Numbered from the stretch's first letter, positions 7,110 through 30,954 are shown. The stretch is DNA of 64,000 nucleotides from an uncultured Candidatus Actinomarina sp. (GCA_902582695.1 CACHTH010000004.1:4064-68063), one strand, 5' to 3'. Notes: generated by a model not told the origin, from the letters alone. Program-made: numbers and translations.

Positions 7110-8141
7110 ATGGAAATAGGTATAGATTCATTTGCAAAAAAAACTCAAACTAATGAAGGTGGCACTGTTCAGGACGATGCTCGTGCTATGTCTGAGCTAA
7201 TTGAGAGAATAGTCCATGCAGACAAAGTAGGTTTAGATGTTTTTGGTCTTGGAGAACACCACAGAGAAGAGTTTTTAGATTCAGCAGCACATAATATACT
7301 TTCTGCTGCAGCGGCAAAGACAGAAAATATAAGGCTAACAAGCGCAGTCGCAGTAATAAGTGCAATGGATCCAGTTAGGTTGTTTCAAAATTATGCAACA
7401 TTAGATTTAATTTCAAACGGTAGAGCCGAGATAGTCGCAGGAAGAGGTTCTTTTACAGAAGCATTTCCTCTTTTTGGCTTAGATTTTAATGATTATGATG
7501 AGCTCTATGCCGAAAAGCTTGACCTTTTATTAAAAATAAGAGATGAGAACGGAGTCACTTGGTCTGGAAAATTTAGACCTCCTCTAGAAAATCAGACTGT
7601 GTATCCAAGACCTTTGCAAGATAAAATGCCTGTATGGGTTGGAGTTGGTGGAACACCAGCTTCTTTTGTAAGAGCAGGAGCACTCGGACTTCCTTTAATG
7701 GTTGCAGTAATTGGTGGGGAAACTCATAGATTCAGACCTTTAATAGATCTATATTACGAAGCTGCAGAAAAAGCAGGCCATGATAAAGCCTCTCTAAAAG
7801 TAGGTCTTCATTCACTCGGATTTGTAGCAAACTCAAAAGAGGAAGCTATCGAGAGATATTATCCAGGATATAGAATTTGGTTTAATCAAATTGGAAAAGA
7901 GCGTGGCTGGCCACCAGTTACTATGGAGAGGTTCGAGCAACAAATCGGCGACTTGGGTGCATATGTTATTGGTGGACCAGAGGAAGTAGCAGAAAAATTA
8001 GTTAGACATAGTGAAGCTTTAGGAGGCTTATCTCGTTTTACTTTTCAGATTGATAACGCAGGTCTCACACATGAAGATTTAATGGAAACTTATACATTGA
8101 TTGGAGAAAAAGTAAAACCTTTAGTTTTAGAGAGACTCTAA
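7110..8141 (+). CDS. LLM-class (luciferase-like) flavin-dependent oxidoreductase
   Basis: 343 aa. The N-terminal MEIGIDSF...GLDVFGLGEHH and the TIM-barrel-like pattern are typical of the LLM family. Confidence 0.75.
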   Translation: MEIGIDSFAKKTQTNEGGTVQDDARAMSELIERIVHADKVGLDVFGLGEHHREEFLDSAAHNILSAAAAKTENIRLTSAVAVISAMDPVRLFQNYATLDLISNGRAEIVAGRGSFTEAFPLFGLDFNDYDELYAEKLDLLLKIRDENGVTWSGKFRPPLENQTVYPRPLQDKMPVWVGVGGTPASFVRAGALGLPLMVAVIGGETHRFRPLIDLYYEAAEKAGHDKASLKVGLHSLGFVANSKEEAIERYYPGYRIWFNQIGKERGWPPVTMERFEQQIGDLGAYVIGGPEEVAEKLVRHSEALGGLSRFTFQIDNAGLTHEDLMETYTLIGEKVKPLVLERL

Positions 8142-8753
8142 ATAATCAGGTAAATCAATATCAGCAGAATGATTTTTATCAACTTCTGGTGTTACAAATT
8201 TAGTTTCTACAGGTACTACTCCTGACCAAATTGGAAGGGTTTTATCTGACTCTTCTTCTTTAGGCATACCAGTGCGCTGTTTTAGTGAAAATTCATCAAT
8301 TGTAAATTCAAGCATTGCAGTTTGCAGCCATTCATTTTTTGTAGGCTTTCTTGCATCTTCAAACCTTCCTTTAAAAAATCTATCAACCATATTTTCAAAA
8401 GCAGCATACATAACTGTTTCATCACTAATTCTTTTAGTATTACCAAACACAACTGCTGACTGATAATTCATAGAAGAATGGAAAAGACTTTTAGATAAAA
8501 CTATTCCATGAACACCTGTTGCAGACAACGTTACATTTGAATTATTTGACAATTCTTTAGTAATTCTTGAGCCAACAGCAGCATGAAGATAAATTTTTTC
8601 ATTATAAATTGCATGTAGCATTGGAATAGAAAAGACAGTTCCTTTCTGGTTAAACGACACAGTTACAAAATATGTTTTGTTCAAGAATGAAAAAAGTTCA
8701 TTTAGGTCATATGAAGCACGTTCTTTTAATCTTCTTACTTTAGATTTATCCAC
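8127..8753 (-). CDS. Pyridoxamine 5'-phosphate oxidase-fold FMN-binding protein
   Basis: 208 aa. Begins with a basic segment RRLKERASYD and then the split-barrel pattern (FVTVSF...GTVFSIPM...LHAAVGS) seen in Pyridox_ox_2-type proteins. Convergent 15-nt overlap with the LLM gene. Confidence 0.6.
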   Translation of the reverse strand: MDKSKVRRLKERASYDLNELFSFLNKTYFVTVSFNQKGTVFSIPMLHAIYNEKIYLHAAVGSRITKELSNNSNVTLSATGVHGIVLSKSLFHSSMNYQSAVVFGNTKRISDETVMYAAFENMVDRFFKGRFEDARKPTKNEWLQTAMLEFTIDEFSLKQRTGMPKEEESDKTLPIWSGVVPVETKFVTPEVDKNHSADIDLPDYLESL

Positions 8754-8906
8754 ACTTAAATAGTAAACAAATTGTTAACGGAAGCTATAAAATTTTGTAT
8801 TTTTAATACATCGACAAAGTTTACTTATTAGAATTGCCTTGTAATTTAAGGAAGTTAAATTGCATCACAATTAAATAAAGGGAGCTTATGGAAGGTAGGT
8901 TAACTA

Positions 8907-9452
8907 GTGAAAAAATTCTTTATACAAGATGATGTCTCTACAGCGAAAACATCATCAGTTCTATTCTTTATTTCTGGAGTAATAGCTTTCATACAACCAG
9001 ACATATTAGTTGTGAGAACATTAGCTAGTTTCCTTGGAGCTGTAGCAATAGCACAGATTGTACTCCTTGGGCCACAAATCATGGAAGACAGCATTCCTGA
9101 ATCTTGGAATACTGCAAACGCTATGATTGCTGCTGTTATTTTGCTAGATAATTTAATCGACACTGGTTTTGTCGCAAGAGAACTAGAAAATCCAATTGCA
9201 CGAGAACCAATATTTATATTTCTTAATTTTGCTTTTCTTGGATATGCATTCACGACTGAAGGTAATATGTCTAACGTATTCAGGTATATGATTATGTTTG
9301 GTGCTTCATCTTTTATTCTTGTTATTGGTGCGGAGTTCTTTTTTGGAGTTGAGATACCCGAGTCCTTTGACATAGTATTTTTGCCAGTGTTCTTTTCGTG
9401 GCTTATAGGAATTACAGCAGGAACTTATACAGCTTTTAGTAATAAAGAATAA
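8907..9452 (+). CDS. Small polytopic membrane protein, unknown function (paralogue A1)
   Basis: GTG start, 181 aa, about 4-5 hydrophobic segments. Paralogous to 9803..10339: shared MKKFFIQ, PESW..AMIAA, TTEG....FRY and a C-terminal NKE. Confidence 0.6.
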   Translation: MKKFFIQDDVSTAKTSSVLFFISGVIAFIQPDILVVRTLASFLGAVAIAQIVLLGPQIMEDSIPESWNTANAMIAAVILLDNLIDTGFVARELENPIAREPIFIFLNFAFLGYAFTTEGNMSNVFRYMIMFGASSFILVIGAEFFFGVEIPESFDIVFLPVFFSWLIGITAGTYTAFSNKE

Positions 9453-9465
9453 GGAAGGAGATAAT

Positions 9466-9786
9466 ATGTCAATTACCAACTCAAGAGAGTTCACGATAAA
9501 TGTTGGAAAAATTGCTGAAGCTGAAAAATGGCTTTCCGAAGGAGCAGATCTTTGGAAAGAAATTACAGGAAAAGATGCAGTTATATACAAAGAAGGTTGG
9601 GGAGATCAGTACAAGATGTTATTTGTAACAACCTATGAGTCAATGGGGGAGACAGAAGAAGTTGGTGAAAAAGTAATGGCCGACAAGAGAGTAACTGATT
9701 GGCTTCAAAATGGCATGACAAATGGAGATTTAATTTCCGGTGCTGTTGATAGATTTTTTACAACAATAAAAGATACAAGAAAATAA
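9466..9786 (+). CDS. Small soluble protein, single alpha+beta-barrel (ABM/Dabb-like) module, unknown function
   Basis: 106 aa. GGAAGGAG SD lies 5 nt upstream. The pattern FTINVGK...MLFVTTYESMGETEEV resembles ferredoxin-like ABM/Dabb modules. The fold assignment is by eye only. Confidence 0.55.
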   Translation: MSITNSREFTINVGKIAEAEKWLSEGADLWKEITGKDAVIYKEGWGDQYKMLFVTTYESMGETEEVGEKVMADKRVTDWLQNGMTNGDLISGAVDRFFTTIKDTRK

Positions 9787-9802
9787 AAGAATAGGAGAAA
9801 AA

Positions 9803-10339
9803 ATGAAAAAGTTCTTTATACAAGAACCCAAAGAAGGAGCACAACAAGCAGCTTATATGTTTATAGCTATAAATGTGGTTTGGTTTGTTGGAGGTATAGC
9901 CGAAATAGATTATGGAAATTTTGATAATGTACTTCAAATATTCTGGTCCTTTTCACTTGTAGGAATACTTTTAGGATTGAAAGACCTTCAAGGAGATACA
10001 GTTCCTGAAGATTGGAGACAGGGATACGCGATGATTGCTGCAGCAGTGCTTGTTGCATCACTTCTTGGTATTAACGAAGATCTAAATACTTCTGGGGTTT
10101 GGACATTTTTTGGATTTGTAATACTAGGTCTAGGTGTAACTTCTGAAGGTGTAATCGGCAATATTTGGAGATACGCCGCAATTATTGCTGGATTATTTGG
10201 GATTGTTGGAGCTGGTAGTGAATTTATTACTGGAACTAGTATCATTGCAGACGACTCTCCACTACAGTTTGTTGGTTTTTTAACATTTATTGCAGGTGTC
10301 GGAATAGGACCACTACTTGCTTGGAATAAAAAAGAGTAA
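9803..10339 (+). CDS. Small polytopic membrane protein, unknown function (paralogue A2)
   Basis: 178 aa with an AGGAGA SD. Paralogue of 8907..9452: MKKFFIQ, PEDW..AMIAA, TSEG....WRY and a C-terminal NKKE. Confidence 0.65.
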   Translation: MKKFFIQEPKEGAQQAAYMFIAINVVWFVGGIAEIDYGNFDNVLQIFWSFSLVGILLGLKDLQGDTVPEDWRQGYAMIAAAVLVASLLGINEDLNTSGVWTFFGFVILGLGVTSEGVIGNIWRYAAIIAGLFGIVGAGSEFITGTSIIADDSPLQFVGFLTFIAGVGIGPLLAWNKKE

Positions 10340-10342
10340 CTT

Positions 10343-10984
10343 ATGTATGTAAGACTAGGATTAGCGAACCCTAAAGAAGGAATGACAGAAGACGCTCTAA
10401 ATTACTTTAGAGATGTAGCAATACCTGTATACGATCAAGTAAGTGGACTTCTTGGTGCTGCAGCTTGCATTAATAATGCTGGACAGCTTATGGCATGGAC
10501 TACCTGGGCGAACAATGAAGCAAAAGAAGCGGCAATGTCAGAGTTTCAACAAAACCTTTCAGGATTAGCGGATTTCATTACAGAACCTCCAACAATACTT
10601 GAAGGGCCAATGGTTGCAGGACAACAATACATTACAGTTCCAAAAGATGGTGAAGACCCATTTTTTGCAAGATTTGTATTAGGCGGTGGAACGCAAGAAG
10701 GTAAAACTTATGATGATGTTGCAGAGTTTATGACAAACACTGTTTATCCAGCATATGAAAACGTTGATGGCATATTTGCTACTGCTGCATGCAAAGTTGA
10801 TGACAACAGTGGTTTTAGTTTTAATTTTTGGACTAGCCATGACGCTGCACACGCAGCATCTGATGTAATTGCAAATGTAGTACAAGATGCTGTTGCAAGT
10901 TTAATAAAAGAAGCTCCACAAGAGCTAACAGGGGAATGTAACGTCTGGAAAAACTATGTTGATTTTCCAGTTGGGAAAATGTAA
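10343..10984 (+). CDS. Tandem alpha+beta-barrel (double ABM/Dabb-like) protein, unknown function (paralogue C1)
   Basis: 213 aa, two roughly 100-aa repeats: MYVRLGL...TTWANNEAKEAA and FARFVLG...FWTSHDAAHAAS. Paralogue of 12245..12880. Confidence 0.6.
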   Translation: MYVRLGLANPKEGMTEDALNYFRDVAIPVYDQVSGLLGAAACINNAGQLMAWTTWANNEAKEAAMSEFQQNLSGLADFITEPPTILEGPMVAGQQYITVPKDGEDPFFARFVLGGGTQEGKTYDDVAEFMTNTVYPAYENVDGIFATAACKVDDNSGFSFNFWTSHDAAHAASDVIANVVQDAVASLIKEAPQELTGECNVWKNYVDFPVGKM

Positions 10985-10995
10985 GAAAGGAAAAA

Positions 10996-11607
10996 ATGAT
11001 TACACAAAAAGAAAAACAACTGGGCAGCCTTTTCGCAAAATTGGCAGCAATAGGAGTAGCAGCAAATTTTGTTGTTGGAATAGTCTTAATAGGACCTGAC
11101 AGTGTTGGATATAGCTCAACTTACGGACCACTACAATCTGTTATTGGGTTTGTAACGAATTTTGCATGGTTAGCTATATTAATGTATGGTTCAAAGATCT
11201 GTGACGCTGAAAATAATCCATATTTTAGGCTTGTGTCAAGTGGGTTGTTTGTAATGGTAGCTTTCAATTTAATGAATGCATTTGTTGGTCCGTCATATGA
11301 AACAGCCACTAACACGCTATTTTCAACATCAGAAATTTCTGATATTTATGGTGCAAACTGGGTTGTTTGGAATGTATTTTTTGGATTATATGCACTTGTC
11401 TTTTTAAGAAGTGCCGGAAAAGAACTATTACCTAGATGGGGAGTTATCTTTGGAACTATTGTGGGCTATACCCTCTCATGGTTTCCAATAGCGCTGGCTT
11501 TCATAACACCACCTGATATTGTCGGTATTATTTTGGGTCTTGGTGTTGGAGTTATTAGTTATCCAATTTTTATTTTTTCAATCTCAAAAGCATTTGATAA
11601 CGCATAA
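10996..11607 (+). CDS. Six-TM membrane protein, unknown function (paralogue D1)
   Basis: 203 aa with an AAGGAA SD. MITQKEKQLGS start, LPRWG motif, YPIFIFSISKAF end. Paralogue of 11619..12230. Loose resemblance to DUF4386-type proteins, from memory only. Confidence 0.6.
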   Translation: MITQKEKQLGSLFAKLAAIGVAANFVVGIVLIGPDSVGYSSTYGPLQSVIGFVTNFAWLAILMYGSKICDAENNPYFRLVSSGLFVMVAFNLMNAFVGPSYETATNTLFSTSEISDIYGANWVVWNVFFGLYALVFLRSAGKELLPRWGVIFGTIVGYTLSWFPIALAFITPPDIVGIILGLGVGVISYPIFIFSISKAFDNA

Positions 11608-11618
11608 AGGAAGGATAT

Positions 11619-12230
11619 ATGATTACACAAAAAGAAAGAGAACTTGGTTCAAGGTTTGCACTCATTAACATTGTTGCAACTGTTGCATCCTTTGTAATAC
11701 TTGCATTTGTAATTGGACCAGATCAAACAGGATACGATGAAAGCTTAGGGCCAATTACAAATTTAATTGGACTAGCTCAAGGATTATCATTTTTAGGCAT
11801 TGTTAGGTTGTCTGGAAAGTTATTTAATTCCGAAGAAAATCCTCTATTAGCTGGAGCTGTAGCAGTTGCTTATGGTACAGCAGTTGTGGGGCTTATGTTT
11901 ACATTAACTCCAACATTTATAGCTAACGGGTTTTACCAGGGAACTATGAGTGCTGATATGGTGACTGATTTAGGGTTTGCTTTAAACTTTACACAATTTC
12001 TAATTGGTGCACTCTGGGTATCTCAAGTGGTTAGAGCTGATGGTGGCCAGCTTCCATCATGGGGGAAAAATGTAGGAAACGCACAGGCCTATGGCAGCGC
12101 TGCAGTGCTCTTAGCCTTTTATTTTGGAGCAATTGGAGAAGCATTGTTCGTTCCGGCACTTGTACTTTTTGGAATTGTTTTATACCCACTATTTATTTTT
12201 GGGCTATCTAAAGCATTTGCAGAAAGTTAA
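11619..12230 (+). CDS. Six-TM membrane protein, unknown function (paralogue D2)
   Basis: 203 aa with an AGGAAGGA SD. MITQKERELGS start, LPSWG motif, YPLFIFGLSKAF end. Confidence 0.6.
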   Translation: MITQKERELGSRFALINIVATVASFVILAFVIGPDQTGYDESLGPITNLIGLAQGLSFLGIVRLSGKLFNSEENPLLAGAVAVAYGTAVVGLMFTLTPTFIANGFYQGTMSADMVTDLGFALNFTQFLIGALWVSQVVRADGGQLPSWGKNVGNAQAYGSAAVLLAFYFGAIGEALFVPALVLFGIVLYPLFIFGLSKAFAES

Positions 12231-12244
12231 AAAGAGAGGAAATT

Positions 12245-12880
12245 ATGTACTTTAGAATAACAATTCCATCTCTTCAAGATGGAAAAAAAGATGAAGCAAT
12301 TTCTTTTGTTAAAGAAAGGGTGATGACTGAGTTTGACAACACTCCTGGACTTTTATCAATGACTGCAGCGATCACTGGAGAAACATCTGGTATCAATATG
12401 GCAGCCTATGAAAGTAAAGAGGCCATGGAGTCAATTGCTGATAAAATACAGACTGTTTTAGCAGAAGCAGCAGTCTTTATGTCTGCACCTCCTGTAATTT
12501 ATCAAGGAGATGCAGTGTTTGGAAAAGTTTATCAAACTATTGGAAAAGATGAAAAAAAACCAGGTTATTTACGTCTTGTTGTAGGAGTAGCAAAAGACAA
12601 TGATGCTGTTTTAAATTTCATAAAAGAAAAAGTTCAACCCATATATGAAGAGTCTGAGGGACTTCAAATAACTGGAGCAATATTTGATGAAAATACAGGT
12701 ATAAGTTGGAGTATTTGGGATTCCCAAGCTGCAATGGATGAAGCTGCTACGCAACTTCAAAACGCGCTTGATAGTGAATCAGAATCAGATTTATTTGATG
12801 GAGCTACCGTAGCTTATATGGGTCCTGTATATGCAGGTAAATTGTTTGTAGATTTTAACGAAGGAGATTCTCCTACATAA
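12245..12880 (+). CDS. Tandem alpha+beta-barrel (double ABM/Dabb-like) protein, unknown function (paralogue C2)
   Basis: 211 aa with a GAGAGGA SD. Two repeats: MYFRITI...AAYESKEAMESIA and YLRLVVG...IWDSQAAMDEAA. Confidence 0.6.
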   Translation: MYFRITIPSLQDGKKDEAISFVKERVMTEFDNTPGLLSMTAAITGETSGINMAAYESKEAMESIADKIQTVLAEAAVFMSAPPVIYQGDAVFGKVYQTIGKDEKKPGYLRLVVGVAKDNDAVLNFIKEKVQPIYEESEGLQITGAIFDENTGISWSIWDSQAAMDEAATQLQNALDSESESDLFDGATVAYMGPVYAGKLFVDFNEGDSPT

Positions 12881-12905
12881 ATCTTTGTGAATAGATAACG
12901 CATAG

Positions 12906-12941
12906 AAAAAAAGGGATTTTTTATAAAATCCCTTTTTTTTG
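12906..12941 (+). terminator. Intrinsic terminator closing the 8907-12880 operon
   Basis: GGGATTTT-TTAT-AAAATCCC stem-loop followed by a T8 run. Confidence 0.75.
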
Positions 12942-13101: not shown

Positions 13102-13479
13102 ATGAATCTTAAAGACTTCACGGATGTCGAATATATAAATCTTATTACATACAAAAAAGATAAAACGCCTATTACAACTCCAGTATGGGTTGCCGACTTT
13201 TCTAATTCATTAGTTATAACAACAAGTCTGAATGCAGGAAAAGTTAAGAGGGTTAGAAACAATGGTCAAGCAACAATATACATTACTAACCAAAGTGGTT
13301 CTAAAAAGCTATCAGAAAGTATAGACCTAAAAGCATCACTTATAGAGGATGTAGATCTAAAAGAGCAGGCTGCAGATGTAATTAGAAAAAAATATGGCAT
13401 GATGGCAAAAATGATTATGAAAGGACCCGATGAAAATAGGGCAATTATCAGATTAGAAGAAAAGGGAGGTGAAAAATGA
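13102..13479 (+). CDS. PPOX-class (pyridoxamine 5'-phosphate oxidase fold) probable F420/FMN-binding protein
   Basis: 125 aa. YINLITYKKDKTPITTPVWV...KVKRVRNNGQATIY...IRKKYG matches the small PPOX-class pattern. Confidence 0.65.
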   Translation: MNLKDFTDVEYINLITYKKDKTPITTPVWVADFSNSLVITTSLNAGKVKRVRNNGQATIYITNQSGSKKLSESIDLKASLIEDVDLKEQAADVIRKKYGMMAKMIMKGPDENRAIIRLEEKGGEK

Positions 13480-21478: not shown

Positions 21479-21520
21479 GGCAACAGTATATAAGAGGATT
21501 AGTTTAAATAAGGGTACTCG

Positions 21521-21595
21521 TGGGCCTAGTTAGATTTGAACTAACGACCTCATCCTTATCAGGGATGCGCTCTAACCAGGCTGAGCTATAGGCCC
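21521..21595 (-). tRNA. tRNA-Ile (anticodon GAT)
   Basis: Reverse complement: GGGCCTATAGCTCAGCCTGGTTAGAGCGCATCCCTGATAAGGATGAGGTCGTTAGTTCAAATCTAACTAGGCCCA. Cloverleaf with a 7-bp acceptor stem and anticodon loop CTGATAA. No encoded CCA. Confidence 0.95.
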
Positions 21596-21683
21596 ATACG
21601 TCTAATTAACAATAGTCTATCAATGGAAATATTTAAATTTTTTTTTCATTTACTGTAAGATTCAGTGCATAATATAAATGCGA

Positions 21684-21756
21684 GGGGATGTAGCTCAGCT
21701 GGAAGAGCACCTGCTTTGCAAGCAGGGGGTCGTGGGTTCAAGTCCCATCATCTCCA
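21684..21756 (+). tRNA. tRNA-Ala (anticodon TGC)
   Basis: GGGGATGTAGCTCAGCTGGAAGAGCACCTGCTTTGCAAGCAGGGGGTCGTGGGTTCAAGTCCCATCATCTCCA. G3-U70 pair present. Anticodon loop TTTGCAA. Confidence 0.95.
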
Positions 21757-21776
21757 CAATAAGGTAACCTAAATAT

Positions 21777-30576: not shown

Positions 30577-30665
30577 GGAGGGATCGCATAGTCTGGCCTA
30601 GTGCGCACGCTTGGAAAGCGTGTAAGGGTTTATCCCCTTCGAGGGTTCGAATCCCTCTCCCTCCG
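30577..30665 (+). tRNA. tRNA-Ser (anticodon GGA)
   Basis: GGAGGGA acceptor stem, anticodon loop TTGGAAA, long variable arm, GGTTCGAATCC T-loop. Confidence 0.9.
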
Positions 30666-30685
30666 CAAAAAGAAAGAAACCATCT

Positions 30686-30771
30686 GGAGGGATGGCCGAG
30701 CGGACGAAGGCGATAGTCTTGAAAACTATTGTATGTATTCCATACCGTGGGTTCGAATCCCACTCCCTCCG
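30686..30771 (+). tRNA. tRNA-Ser (anticodon TGA)
   Basis: GGAGGGA acceptor stem, anticodon loop CTTGAAA, long variable arm, GGTTCGAATCC T-loop. Confidence 0.9.
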
Positions 30772-30778
30772 CTGACTT

Positions 30779-30865
30779 GGAGAGGTGACTGAGTGGCCTA
30801 AAGTGCTCGCCTGCTAAGCGAGTGGGGAAGAAATTCCCTCGAGGGTTCGAATCCCTCCCTCTCCG
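30779..30865 (+). tRNA. tRNA-Ser (anticodon GCT)
   Basis: GGAGAGG acceptor stem, anticodon loop CTGCTAA, long variable arm, GGTTCGAATCC T-loop. Confidence 0.9.
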
Positions 30866-30869
30866 CAAT

Positions 30870-30943
30870 GCGCCCGTAGCTTAACTGGATAGAGCATCTG
30901 ACTACGGATCAGAAGGTTGGGGGTTCGACTCCCTCCGGGCGTG
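30870..30943 (+). tRNA. tRNA-Arg (anticodon ACG)
   Basis: GCGCCCGTAGCTTAACTGGATAGAGCATCTGACTACGGATCAGAAGGTTGGGGGTTCGACTCCCTCCGGGCGTG. Anticodon loop CTACGGA. Confidence 0.9.
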
Positions 30944-30954
30944 CATTAAAAACC

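What the first reader, a model, noticed from the sequence alone, without database searches (positions are those of the whole stretch)
8907..12941. Seven-gene operon built only from paralogue pairs: two kinds of small polytopic membrane proteins interleaved with ABM/Dabb-like alpha+beta-barrel proteins
Operon structure: seven co-directional ORFs have gaps of only 3-16 nt. Nearly all have a purine-rich SD (GGAAGGAG, AGGAGA, AAGGAA, AGGAAGGA, GAGAGGA). The set is closed by a clean hairpin+T8 terminator. Gene order is A1-B-A2-C1-D1-D2-C2.

Paralogue pairs:
- A1 (181 aa) and A2 (178 aa) share MKKFFIQ, PE[SD]W..AMIAA, T[TS]EG....[FW]RY and an NK(K)E end. Each has about 4-5 TM.
- D1 and D2 are both exactly 203 aa. 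They share MITQKE[KR].LGS, GPD..GY, LP.WG and YP.FIF..SKAF. Each has about 6 TM.
- C1 (213 aa) and C2 (211 aa) are each an internal duplication of a roughly 100-aa module.
- B (106 aa) is one such module.

Fold guess: the module pattern is a hydrophobic beta-strand start, then ...W/Y.S.[ED]A...A. It looks like the dimeric alpha+beta-barrel fold of ABM, Dabb and EthD proteins.

Context: I see no ATPase, substrate-binding protein, regulator, or obvious cofactor or metal motif. The operon is bracketed by PNPOx-fold flavin/deazaflavin proteins (8127-8753 and 13102-13479) and an LLM oxidoreductase (7110-8141).

Composition: spot counts of single 60-nt lines give 47% and 37% G+C inside the operon against 22-30% in lines elsewhere. 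That is comparable to the AapJ-like SBP gene (47%). It could mean high expression, Gly/Ala-rich composition or foreign origin.

A soluble-barrel plus membrane-partner stoichiometry repeated three times suggests a membrane-associated complex of unknown role. This is my best candidate for an undescribed system.
Basis: partly seen in the sequence, partly recalled or inferred. Interest (0 to 1): 0.8.

Follow-up and report, generated by a model that had tools for sequence, protein, structure and literature searches.

The report
Variable membrane-plus-barrel gene array, Actinomarina
A tiny-genome ocean bacterium (Candidatus Actinomarina) has one operon of unknown function, made of a new family of small membrane proteins plus ABM-fold barrel proteins, whose gene set differs in almost every species and is swapped gene by gene between species.

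Summary
The seven-gene operon is real. The ORFs, 3-16 nt gaps, Shine-Dalgarno sites, terminator, three paralogue pairs and the internal duplication in C all check out.

C1 models confidently as a single-chain tandem ABM barrel. B is NIPSNAP-like, just below threshold. D1 models confidently as a six-helix membrane protein. It has no relative in Pfam, NCBIfam or PDB sequences, and no Foldseek match. A and D appear to be distant homologues.

The window comes from Candidatus Actinomarina. In 32 complete species-level loci the same chromosomal slot holds 28 different arrays of 2 to about 10 genes. Nearly all come from these families. Subfamily order is kept but content varies. Single cassettes have been exchanged between species and genera. 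All subfamilies are under purifying selection.

A conserved leader with a covariation-supported RNA hairpin always precedes the first cassette.

The membrane:soluble ratio ranges from 0:2 to 5:2, with no cognate neighbours, and D-only arrays exist in other lineages. A fixed three-fold complex is therefore not supported. The flanking flavin-enzyme genes are not conserved neighbours, and composition is native.

Function is unknown. My best guess is a diversifiable toolkit for handling small hydrophobic or aromatic molecules. The locus appears undescribed.

The parts
8829..8834 (+). Putative -10 promoter box TAGAAT
   Evidence: Inferred from sequence only. The box is conserved at the same alignment columns in all leader types (TAGAAT, TAGACT, TATAAT, TATACT). 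It lies about 6 nt before hairpin 1. The transcription start site was not determined.
8840..8864 (+). Leader RNA hairpin 1: 10-bp stem with a GGAAG loop
   Evidence: 98.4% of cells are paired across 25 distinct leaders. 5 of 10 pairs show compensatory changes and the other 5 vary only to G.U. Slid controls pair at 28-50%. Energy -7.3 kcal/mol, z -2.35. The one-sided changes give U.G wobbles, which fit sense-strand RNA only.
8883..8901 (+). Leader hairpin 2, with an SD-like GGAAG(G) in the loop (tentative)
   Evidence: Energy -7.0 kcal/mol, z -2.42. The sequence is conserved but shows no real covariation, and the type-2 leaders use a shifted register.
8907..9452 (+). A1: 181-aa, about 6-TM membrane protein (A family, subfamily 'A5')
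   Evidence: The GTG start is confirmed by the family-wide MKKFF N-terminus. dN/dS 0.06. Leader plus gene is 87% identical in DNA to L032, where the flanks are 69-72% identical.
9466..9786 (+). B: 106-aa soluble NIPSNAP-like protein
   Evidence: NIPSNAP at 20.4 bits against a cut-off of 22.3. All 4 orthologues tested hit nearly the full profile. dN/dS 0.07.
9803..10339 (+). A2: 178-aa, about 6-TM membrane protein (A family, subfamily 'A2')
   Evidence: dN/dS 0.14.
10343..10984 (+). C1: 213-aa cytoplasmic tandem ABM barrel, the constant core of the array
   Evidence: AlphaFold2 pLDDT 93.3, pTM 0.87. Foldseek PDB matches 3mcs/3f44, TM 0.75, E 3e-11. Present in 32 of 32 complete slots, but it was the search query, so this is biased. 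dN/dS 0.07.
10996..11607 (+). D1: 203-aa 6-TM membrane protein (D family, singleton subfamily 'D9')
   Evidence: AlphaFold2 pLDDT 88, pTM 0.84, six long helices. No Foldseek match in PDB or BFVD. Only 62 relatives among 1.84 billion representatives.
11619..12230 (+). D2: 203-aa 6-TM membrane protein (subfamily 'D6'), a recently exchanged cassette
   Evidence: Window 11607-12223 is 94.2% identical in DNA to L025, where the flanks are 75-80% identical. The breakpoints lie at the gene borders.
12245..12880 (+). C2: 211-aa tandem ABM barrel (subfamily 'C2')
   Evidence: 28% identical to C1, E 1e-25. Its halves are related. dN/dS 0.08.
12906..12940 (+). Intrinsic terminator: long A/U-G/C stem followed by T8
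   Evidence: Energy -16.9 kcal/mol, z -5.47, 0 of 200 shuffles as stable. Conserved after the last cassette in genus-1 loci.

Best explanation
SHOWN
- This is one transcription unit of Candidatus Actinomarina. It runs from a conserved structured leader to a conserved terminator.
- Its genes are interchangeable cassettes of two kinds. The first kind is six-TM, N-in/C-in cytoplasmic-membrane proteins of a new clade-restricted superfamily (A and D). The second kind is cytoplasmic proteins of the cofactor-independent ABM / dimeric alpha+beta-barrel class: C, a fused pseudo-dimer; B, NIPSNAP-like; and, in other genomes, E.
- The array sits at a fixed chromosomal slot. It keeps a fixed subfamily order but differs in content between nearly all species.
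- Single cassettes are replaced by homologous recombination between species and genera.
- Each subfamily is under purifying selection.

INFERRED
- The parts work as loosely coupled modules, not as a fixed hetero-complex.
- The barrels bind or transform small hydrophobic or aromatic molecules (quinone-, polyketide- or tetrapyrrole-like). This is what characterised ABM proteins do.
- The membrane proteins bind, admit or expel such molecules at the membrane.
- Paralogue diversification and cassette swapping tune the range of compounds handled. This would be a compact 'accessory chemistry' locus in a genome that otherwise has very few paralogues.
For: - Operon anatomy.
- Leader: one copy per locus, always in front of the first cassette whichever subfamily that is, with covariation.
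- C1 fold: pLDDT 93, with nearest structures being ABM monooxygenase-type proteins, including an anthrone-oxidase-like protein and PenE.
- Weak ABM, NIPSNAP and DUF1428 hits to B, C and E, and weak ABM-type hits in the PDB profile search.
- D1 is a confident 6-TM model. A and D are related. Topology is N-in/C-in.
- Across each family only Gly, Pro and aromatic residues are invariant. That fits binding or scaffold roles with diverging specificity better than one fixed catalytic site.
- 28 distinct arrays occur in 32 complete slots, with conserved subfamily order.
- Cassette-bounded identity jumps.
- dN/dS is 0.05-0.27, against 0.04-0.13 for the flanking genes.
- Native codon composition.
- In some genomes the same operon also carries a cupin and an Acyl_transf_3 gene.
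Against: - No substrate, ligand or activity is indicated by any result. The functional half of the statement rests on fold-level analogy at about 10% sequence identity.
- No catalytic residues are conserved across the C subfamilies.
- The A and D proteins have no conserved polar intramembrane residues and no structural resemblance to any known transporter.
- Membrane and soluble genes need not act on the same thing. D-only arrays exist, and one contig has B+C1 with no membrane gene.
- C1's universality is biased because it was the search query.
- hhalign between two hydrophobic families can overstate homology.
Confidence: 0.4

Rival explanations
1. Fixed membrane-associated hetero-complex. Each barrel protein docks onto a cognate membrane partner, and the operon encodes three such pairs that assemble into one machine.
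For: - Tight translational coupling, with 3-16 nt gaps.
- Conserved cytoplasmic-loop motifs in D (K.LF..NP and LPxWG) could be docking sites.
- C1 is almost always directly preceded by a membrane gene.
Against: - The membrane:soluble ratio varies from 0:2 to 5:2.
- Each soluble subfamily follows 4-9 different upstream subfamilies, and C allele similarity does not track the upstream neighbour.
- There are runs of C-C (C1-C4, C3-C2) and of A-A-A.
- D-only arrays occur in other lineages.
Confidence: 0.12
2. Immunity or protection array. The small polytopic membrane proteins, and perhaps the barrels, neutralise membrane-targeting toxins, peptides or phage functions. Paralogue arrays with cassette exchange would resemble orphan immunity-gene islands.
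For: - Tandem, deeply diverged paralogues.
- Content differs between close relatives, and cassettes move between species.
- The proteins are small multi-TM proteins without catalytic residues.
Against: - No toxin, secretion, bacteriocin or defence gene lies in or beside any slot.
- PADLOC, PHROGs and Pfam give nothing.
- No copies on viral contigs.
- Subfamily order is conserved and orthologues evolve slowly.
- The clade is reported to lack toxin-antitoxin and similar systems (PMC7771536).
- Free-living picoplankton at low cell density seems an unlikely setting for contact-dependent antagonism (my own reasoning).
Confidence: 0.15
3. Nutrient or vitamin capture. A and D would be substrate-specific membrane components, like the S-components of ECF transporters, that use an energising module encoded elsewhere. 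The paralogues would cover different micronutrients in a highly auxotrophic organism.
For: - Size (180-200 aa), six TM segments and N-in/C-in topology.
- Many deeply diverged paralogues.
- No ATPase in the operon.
- The clade is reported to have extensive auxotrophies (bioRxiv 10.64898/2026.04.03.716425).
Against: - Foldseek finds no S-component (RibU, ThiT, BioY and so on) or any other transporter. Best E is 0.27 and TM is at most 0.36.
- No ECF, BioY or ThiW Pfam signal in 47 members.
- No PDB sequence hit.
- It gives no role to the ABM partners.
Confidence: 0.1
4. Envelope-variation locus. The membrane proteins are exposed or envelope-modifying factors diversified under phage pressure, a miniature counterpart of the glycotype island.
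For: - Hypervariable content at a fixed position.
- In genus 2 an Acyl_transf_3 gene follows the last cassette with no terminator. From background knowledge, this family typically O-acylates envelope glycans.
Against: - The outward-facing loops of D are short (7 and 19 residues), and loop 1 is among the most conserved parts of the protein.
- Half of the genes are cytoplasmic barrels.
- dN/dS is low.
- GC3 is native, whereas the glycotype island is reported to have low GC (PMC7771536).
Confidence: 0.08

Closest known systems
Single-chain tandem ABM 'putative monooxygenases' (PDB 3mcs FN1347, 3f44), the anthrone-oxidase-like protein 5f9p and PenE 9kdp; ABM superfamily, Pfam PF03992
   Same: C1 has the same two-module beta-alpha-beta-beta-alpha-beta barrel in one chain (TM 0.59-0.76, E 1e-8 to 3e-11). 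It has no cofactor motif. It carries the W-x-S-x-[ED]-A type signature.
   Different: - About 10% identity, and below the Pfam cut-off (15 against 23 bits).
- No conserved catalytic set across subfamilies.
- Encoded in a variable array with membrane proteins.
- The best-matching structures are themselves structural-genomics proteins of unknown function.
NIPSNAP family (PF07978)
   Same: B aligns to nearly the whole profile in 4 of 4 orthologues. From background knowledge, NIPSNAP has the same general fold class as ABM.
   Different: All scores (15-20 bits) lie below the gathering score of 22.3. B has no detectable similarity to C. No structure was predicted for B.
Flexible genomic islands of streamlined marine bacteria (fGI1 / HVR of Actinomarinales; PMC7771536; bioRxiv 10.64898/2026.04.03.716425)
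   Same: Fixed chromosomal position, content that differs between close relatives, and exchange of small cassettes between species and genera.
   Different: - Not tRNA-bounded; the nearest tRNA is more than 8 kb away.
- Only 1.3-6 kb, and inside a single operon.
- Built from four or five homologous families in a conserved order.
- Native GC3.
- The 2020 paper states that no other island common to all genera was detected.
Tandem paralogue clusters that evolve by recombination between repeats (for example the cluster in PMC2568036, seen from title and abstract only)
   Same: Tandem homologous genes with variable copy number, and recombination breakpoints at or near gene borders.
   Different: Here two unrelated protein classes are interleaved. 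Paralogues are 20-40% identical, too diverged for simple unequal crossing-over. Subfamily order is conserved.
ECF-transporter S-components
   Same: Similar size, six TM segments, many divergent paralogues and no ATPase nearby.
   Different: No structural or sequence similarity detected.
5'-terminal stabiliser stem-loops, and GGA-loop hairpin pairs as bound by CsrA-type regulators (from background knowledge)
   Same: A hairpin lies about 6 nt downstream of the putative -10 box. There are two hairpins with GGA-containing loops, the second at the ribosome-binding site.
   Different: No Rfam family matches. The transcription start site is unknown. To my knowledge CsrA is not known in Actinobacteria. 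Only hairpin 1 has covariation support.

Membership tests
ABM / dimeric alpha+beta barrel superfamily (C1, C2) | Ferredoxin-like beta-alpha-beta-beta-alpha-beta module, two of which form a barrel | tested here: met
   AlphaFold2 model with pLDDT 93 shows the pattern twice. Foldseek TM 0.75 to 3mcs/3f44, with 133 PDB matches at E <= 1e-3. C2 was not modelled; membership is inferred from its 28% identity to C1.
ABM / dimeric alpha+beta barrel superfamily (C1, C2) | Pfam PF03992 score above the gathering cut-off (23.1 bits) | tested here: not met
   C1 scores 15.1 bits and C2 14.3 bits. By sequence these are outliers of the family.
ABM / dimeric alpha+beta barrel superfamily (C1, C2) | Cofactor-independent oxygenase or isomerase activity on an aromatic substrate | not testable with these tools
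   Needs biochemistry. No conserved catalytic residues across subfamilies.
NIPSNAP (B) | PF07978 score above the gathering cut-off (22.3 bits) | tested here: not met
   15.2-20.4 bits in 4 orthologues, covering profile positions 3-81 or 4-89 of 102. Consistent but below threshold.
ECF-transporter S-component (A, D) | Six-TM fold superposable on RibU, ThiT or BioY | tested here: not met
   Foldseek against PDB gave no transporter hit. Best E 0.27, TM at most 0.36.
ECF-transporter S-component (A, D) | EcfT/EcfA energising module in the genome | not tested
   Only a 64-kb window and locus flanks were available.
Any Pfam, NCBIfam, PADLOC or PHROGs family (A, D) | Profile match above threshold | tested here: not met
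   No family reaches its cut-off for 27 A and 20 D members. The DUF2871 hit is limited to one subfamily, below threshold and out of register.
Toxin-immunity or polymorphic-toxin immunity array | A toxin or toxin-domain gene adjacent, or a known immunity family | tested here: not met
   Slots contain only A/B/C/D/E genes plus, occasionally, a cupin, Acyl_transf_3 or PutA. No Pfam or PADLOC hits.
Integron-type cassette array | An integrase and attC recombination sites between cassettes | tested here: not met
   No integrase in any slot. Intergenic gaps of 3-16 nt seem too short to hold an attC site (sizes from background knowledge).
tRNA-bounded flexible genomic island (fGI1 / HVR) | tRNA genes at the boundaries, and glycosylation-type content | tested here: not met
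   The nearest tRNA is at 21.5 kb in the window. The content is unrelated.
Known RNA families (leader) | Rfam covariance-model match | tested here: not met
   Only a sub-threshold, unrelated hit at the terminator.

The most novel reading that the evidence does not exclude
The A/D proteins are founding members of a new membrane-protein fold and superfamily. Together with diversified cofactor-free ABM barrels, they would form a previously unknown kind of modular system for processing or exporting small molecules. Its repertoire would be reshuffled cassette by cassette within an operon, without integrase, tRNA target or mobile element, and the operon would be controlled by a new structured 5' leader. 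That would be a third way, besides integrons and tRNA-targeted islands, for streamlined bacteria to keep a population-level gene pool at one locus.
Probability: 0.3. Interest if true: 0.85.

Novelty: new variant of a known kind. Interest (0 to 1): 0.62.

Why it matters
- **Organism.** Candidatus Actinomarina is among the smallest and most abundant free-living bacteria of the surface ocean. Its genomes are reported to hold only 29-48 paralogous genes (PMC7771536). One operon that holds 6-10 paralogues, is present in every genus sampled and differs in almost every species is therefore a conspicuous investment. It is probably ecologically important.
- **New families.** The locus defines a membrane-protein superfamily with a confident predicted structure but no known relative. 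It also defines several deep subfamilies of tandem ABM barrels.
- **Exchange mechanism.** Gene-by-gene exchange happens inside an operon with none of the usual machinery.
- **Regulation.** There is a new conserved leader RNA.
- **Use.** Each of these is directly testable. The array could also serve as a fine-scale marker of Actinomarina population structure.

Tried and rejected
- **Family libraries.** Pfam and NCBIfam on the seven proteins, and Pfam on all 47 A/D members, gave nothing above threshold. The ETR1_N, HlyIII, TspO, EamA and DUF2871 hits are sporadic and sub-threshold, and DUF2871 is out of register.
- **Defence and phage libraries.** PADLOC and PHROGs gave nothing.
- **Solved structures by sequence.** A and D profiles against PDB sequences gave nothing. 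The C profile gave only weak ABM hits, plus spurious hits to designed TPR proteins from a short motif.
- **Fold search.** Foldseek of the D1 model against PDB and BFVD gave no match. This set aside the ECF S-component, TspO, DoxX and PnuC ideas.
- **B and E as C-like modules.** hhalign of B and E against the C halves showed no relation.
- **Viral contigs.** Scans for C1 and D found none.
- **Regulatory RNA.** Rfam gave nothing on the operon. The leader covariance model found no second copy in 398 kb, so no regulon clue.
- **Cognate pairs.** The test comparing C alleles with their upstream neighbour gave no signal.
- **Technical failures.** The first leader alignment used wrong coordinates and was redone. 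One dN/dS script timed out and was rewritten. One cluster look-up timed out; the retry returned only 'hypothetical protein'.
- **Short contigs.** The contigs for P0085, P0091 and P0081 added nothing.
- **Foreign origin.** Rejected on GC3.

Full report
**1. The observation**

All seven + strand ORFs are present at the stated coordinates. The gaps are 13, 16, 3, 11, 11 and 14 nt. Purine-rich ribosome-binding sites precede every gene except C1, which starts 3 nt after A2. The terminator at 12906-12940 folds at -16.9 kcal/mol (z -5.5).

The paralogue pairs are statistically solid:

| Pair | Identity | E-value |
|---|---|---|
| A1/A2 | 25% | 9e-17 |
| D1/D2 | 29% | 3e-22 |
| C1/C2 | 28% | 1e-25 |

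The two halves of C are related (hhalign probability 99.5%). B is not detectably similar to the C halves.

The G+C contrast was overstated. The operon is 37.0% G+C against 34.0% for the window. GC3 is 0.221 inside against 0.218 outside. The excess sits at codon positions 1-2 because the proteins are rich in Gly and Ala (19.9% against 12.8%). The genes are therefore compositionally native.

**2. What the proteins are**

No protein reaches a curated threshold in Pfam or NCBIfam. PADLOC and PHROGs give nothing.

*C1.* AlphaFold2, run on 32 sequences, gives pLDDT 93.3 and pTM 0.87, with the beta-alpha-beta-beta-alpha-beta pattern twice. Foldseek places the model next to several groups of structures:
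- single-chain tandem ABM 'putative monooxygenases' 3mcs and 3f44 (TM 0.75, E about 1e-11);
- an anthrone-oxidase-like protein, PenE, sulfur oxygenase reductase and coproheme decarboxylase.

All of these matches are at about 10% identity. The function cannot be read from the fold.

*B.* It hits NIPSNAP just below threshold in all four orthologues tested, across nearly the whole profile.

*D1.* AlphaFold2, run on 16 sequences, gives pLDDT 88 and pTM 0.84, with six long helices. The K/R distribution fits an N-in/C-in topology. Foldseek finds nothing in PDB (best E 0.27, TM at most 0.36) or in BFVD. The A and D profiles find nothing among PDB sequences.

An exhaustive HMMER scan of 1.84 billion representatives found only 62 D relatives, all about 200 aa or fragments. 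A profile search for A found 51 relatives, none with its own Pfam domain.

hhalign relates A to D along almost their whole length (probability 92%, E 6e-7, 165 columns). Both families end in a Gly-x-Gly-x-Gly helix. The two 'kinds' of membrane protein are probably one diverged superfamily.

Within each family the invariant residues are Gly, Pro and aromatics. There is no conserved polar or catalytic set.

**3. The locus in other genomes**

The window comes from Candidatus Actinomarina (OCS155, Actinomarinales). I analysed 37 loci: 34 from GTDB species representatives, two metagenome contigs and the window. In all of them the array lies just upstream of the PPOX-type gene. Where the left flank is present, it lies downstream of the M20 peptidase gene.

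Key points:
- **Flanking genes.** LLM is present in only 15 of 32 complete slots and Pyridox_ox_2 in 4 of 32. The flavin 'bracket' is not part of the system.
- **Slot content.** Slots hold 2 to about 10 genes. Nearly all come from the A, B, C and D families, plus a further ~117-aa soluble family I call E. Occasionally there is a cupin or an Acyl_transf_3 gene.
- **Subfamilies.** At 50% identity there are 8 A, 9 D and 5 C subfamilies.
- **Order.** Subfamily order is conserved: [A5][A1][B][A4][A2|A3|A6] [D5|D7] C1 [C4][E] [D block] [C3][C2|C5].
- **Content.** It differs between genomes, with 28 distinct arrays in 32 complete slots.
- **The window's array.** It reads A5-B-A2-C1-D9-D6-C2. It is one of only two that lack the commonest A subfamily, and its D1 gene is a singleton subfamily.
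- **Minimal arrays.** These are A+C1 and B+C1.

Every subfamily is under purifying selection. dN/dS is 0.05-0.27, against 0.04-0.13 for the flanking genes.

**4. Cassette exchange**

DNA identity jumps at gene borders:

| Comparison | Flank identity | Segment | Segment identity |
|---|---|---|---|
| Window vs L025 | 75-80% | D2 gene (11607-12223) | 94.2% |
| Window vs L032 (another genus) | 69-72% | Leader + A1 | 87.2% |
| Window vs L003 | 87-90% | A2 + C1 | 96.3% |

In the L003 comparison the D block is non-homologous. Single cassettes are therefore replaced by recombination between species and even genera.

The usual machinery is absent:
- No tRNA lies nearby.
- No integrase or other mobile-element gene lies in any slot.
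- No copies occur on viral contigs.

The described Actinomarinales hypervariable island is tRNA-bounded and concerns glycosylation. The 2020 genome paper states that no other island common to all genera was detected. That paper also reports only 29-48 paralogues per genome, so this array accounts for a sizeable share of them.

**5. Leader**

The ~80 nt before the first cassette is conserved whichever subfamily comes first and whichever gene lies upstream.

- **Putative -10 box.** 8829-8834.
- **Hairpin 1.** 8840-8864, a 10-bp stem with a GGAAG loop.
- **Hairpin 2.** 8883-8901, again with a GGAAG loop, at the ribosome-binding site.

Hairpin 1 is paired in 98.4% of cells across 25 distinct leaders. 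Five of its 10 pairs show compensatory changes. The other five vary only to G.U. Slid controls pair at 28-50%.

Most of the double changes trace to one split between two leader types, with independent events in L020 and L017. The one-sided changes give U.G wobbles, which argues for sense-strand RNA rather than a DNA operator.

Hairpin 2 has no covariation support and is tentative. Rfam has no match. A covariance model of the leader finds exactly one copy per locus and none elsewhere in 398 kb.

In genus 2, Acyl_transf_3 follows the last cassette without a terminator.

**6. Against a fixed complex**

- Membrane:soluble gene counts range from 0:2 to 5:2.
- Each soluble subfamily follows many different membrane subfamilies, and C allele similarity does not track the upstream neighbour.
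- In other marine lineages (contigs at 34% and 40-42% G+C), the D family forms arrays of 3-4 tandem paralogues with no A, B, C or E gene, next to ordinary metabolic genes.

**7. Interpretation**

Shown: this is a single leader-to-terminator operon of interchangeable cassettes. They encode a new six-TM membrane superfamily and ABM-class cytoplasmic barrels. The operon sits at a fixed slot with conserved order, variable content, inter-species exchange and purifying selection.

Inferred, with low confidence: the modules handle a varied set of small hydrophobic or aromatic molecules, and paralogue turnover tunes the range. This rests on fold-level analogy only.

The rival explanations are a fixed complex, an immunity array, S-component-like uptake and envelope variation. 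Each has specific evidence against it, but none is excluded.

**8. Novelty**

The ABM part is a set of new subfamilies of a known superfamily. The evolutionary behaviour is a new variant of a flexible genomic island, because it is intra-operon, ordered and tRNA-independent. The A/D superfamily and the leader RNA have no known relatives.

I rate the whole as a new variant of a known kind. I put about a 30% chance on it proving to be a truly new type of system.

Noticed in passing
window 8829-8906; same position in L003-L034: A conserved structured 5' leader (putative -10 box and two hairpins, both with a GGAAG loop) always precedes the first cassette. Hairpin 1 has covariation support. There is no Rfam match.
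   Followed up: yes
L013-L017, L024, L031-L034 (about 22 nt after the C3 stop); also L022, L026, L036, L038: An Acyl_transf_3 membrane protein of about 365 aa (PF01757, E 3e-17) lies between the array and PPOX. In L013-L017 and L031-L034 it starts about 22 nt after the last cassette with no terminator. In L022, L026 and L038 a ~118-aa cupin-like gene precedes it.
   Followed up: partly
L042 10001-12275; L046 7114-9951; L047 4378-7417; L037, L043, L044, L048: D-family-only tandem arrays of 3-4 paralogues, with gaps of up to about 200 nt, occur in unidentified marine lineages (contigs at 34% and 40-42% G+C). Their neighbours are PfkB, LOG, arylsulfotransferase, DinB_2, FAA hydrolase and EamA genes. 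No ABM partner is present.
   Followed up: partly
L016 9317-9673, L021 8654-9004, L023, L026 8655-9008, L031, L034, L036: A fifth cassette family, 'E': a ~117-aa soluble protein starting MEQ.TVNI.KY..H..EIYEAWK. One member has a weak DUF1428 hit. It is absent from the window.
   Followed up: partly
L004 (BOWN01000001.1, 617-kb contig): The record is titled 'MAG: Cryomorphaceae bacterium', but its M20, LLM and C1 proteins are 98% identical to those of the Actinomarina window, so it is probably mislabelled. The array breaks off about 18 nt into a D-like gene (ATGATTACACAAAAGAAG), and no PPOX follows. This could be a rearrangement or an assembly join.
   Followed up: no
L001 10001-10615: The C1 orthologue on this long-read contig loses similarity after residue ~159 and ends early at 204 aa. 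It looks like a frameshift, either an assembly error or a pseudogene.
   Followed up: no
L008 3448-6762; L026 2739-6068: An ~1100-aa ORF lies immediately upstream of the array in these two genomes, in place of the usual left-flank genes. From its sequence it looks like a PutA-type proline dehydrogenase / aldehyde dehydrogenase fusion, but I ran no family search on it. The left flank of the slot is not stable.
   Followed up: no
window 21520-21757 and 30577-30944: A divergent tRNA-Ile/tRNA-Ala pair and a cluster of three tRNA-Ser plus tRNA-Arg lie here, with G+C dipping to 29% around 28-29 kb. This might be the edge of the tRNA-bounded hypervariable island described for Actinomarinales.
   Followed up: no
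window 8887-8909: An upstream ATG inside hairpin 2 (ATGGAAGGTAGGTTAAC...) opens a short reading frame that is out of frame with A1 and overlaps its start. It is conserved in type-1 leaders. Its significance is unknown.
   Followed up: no
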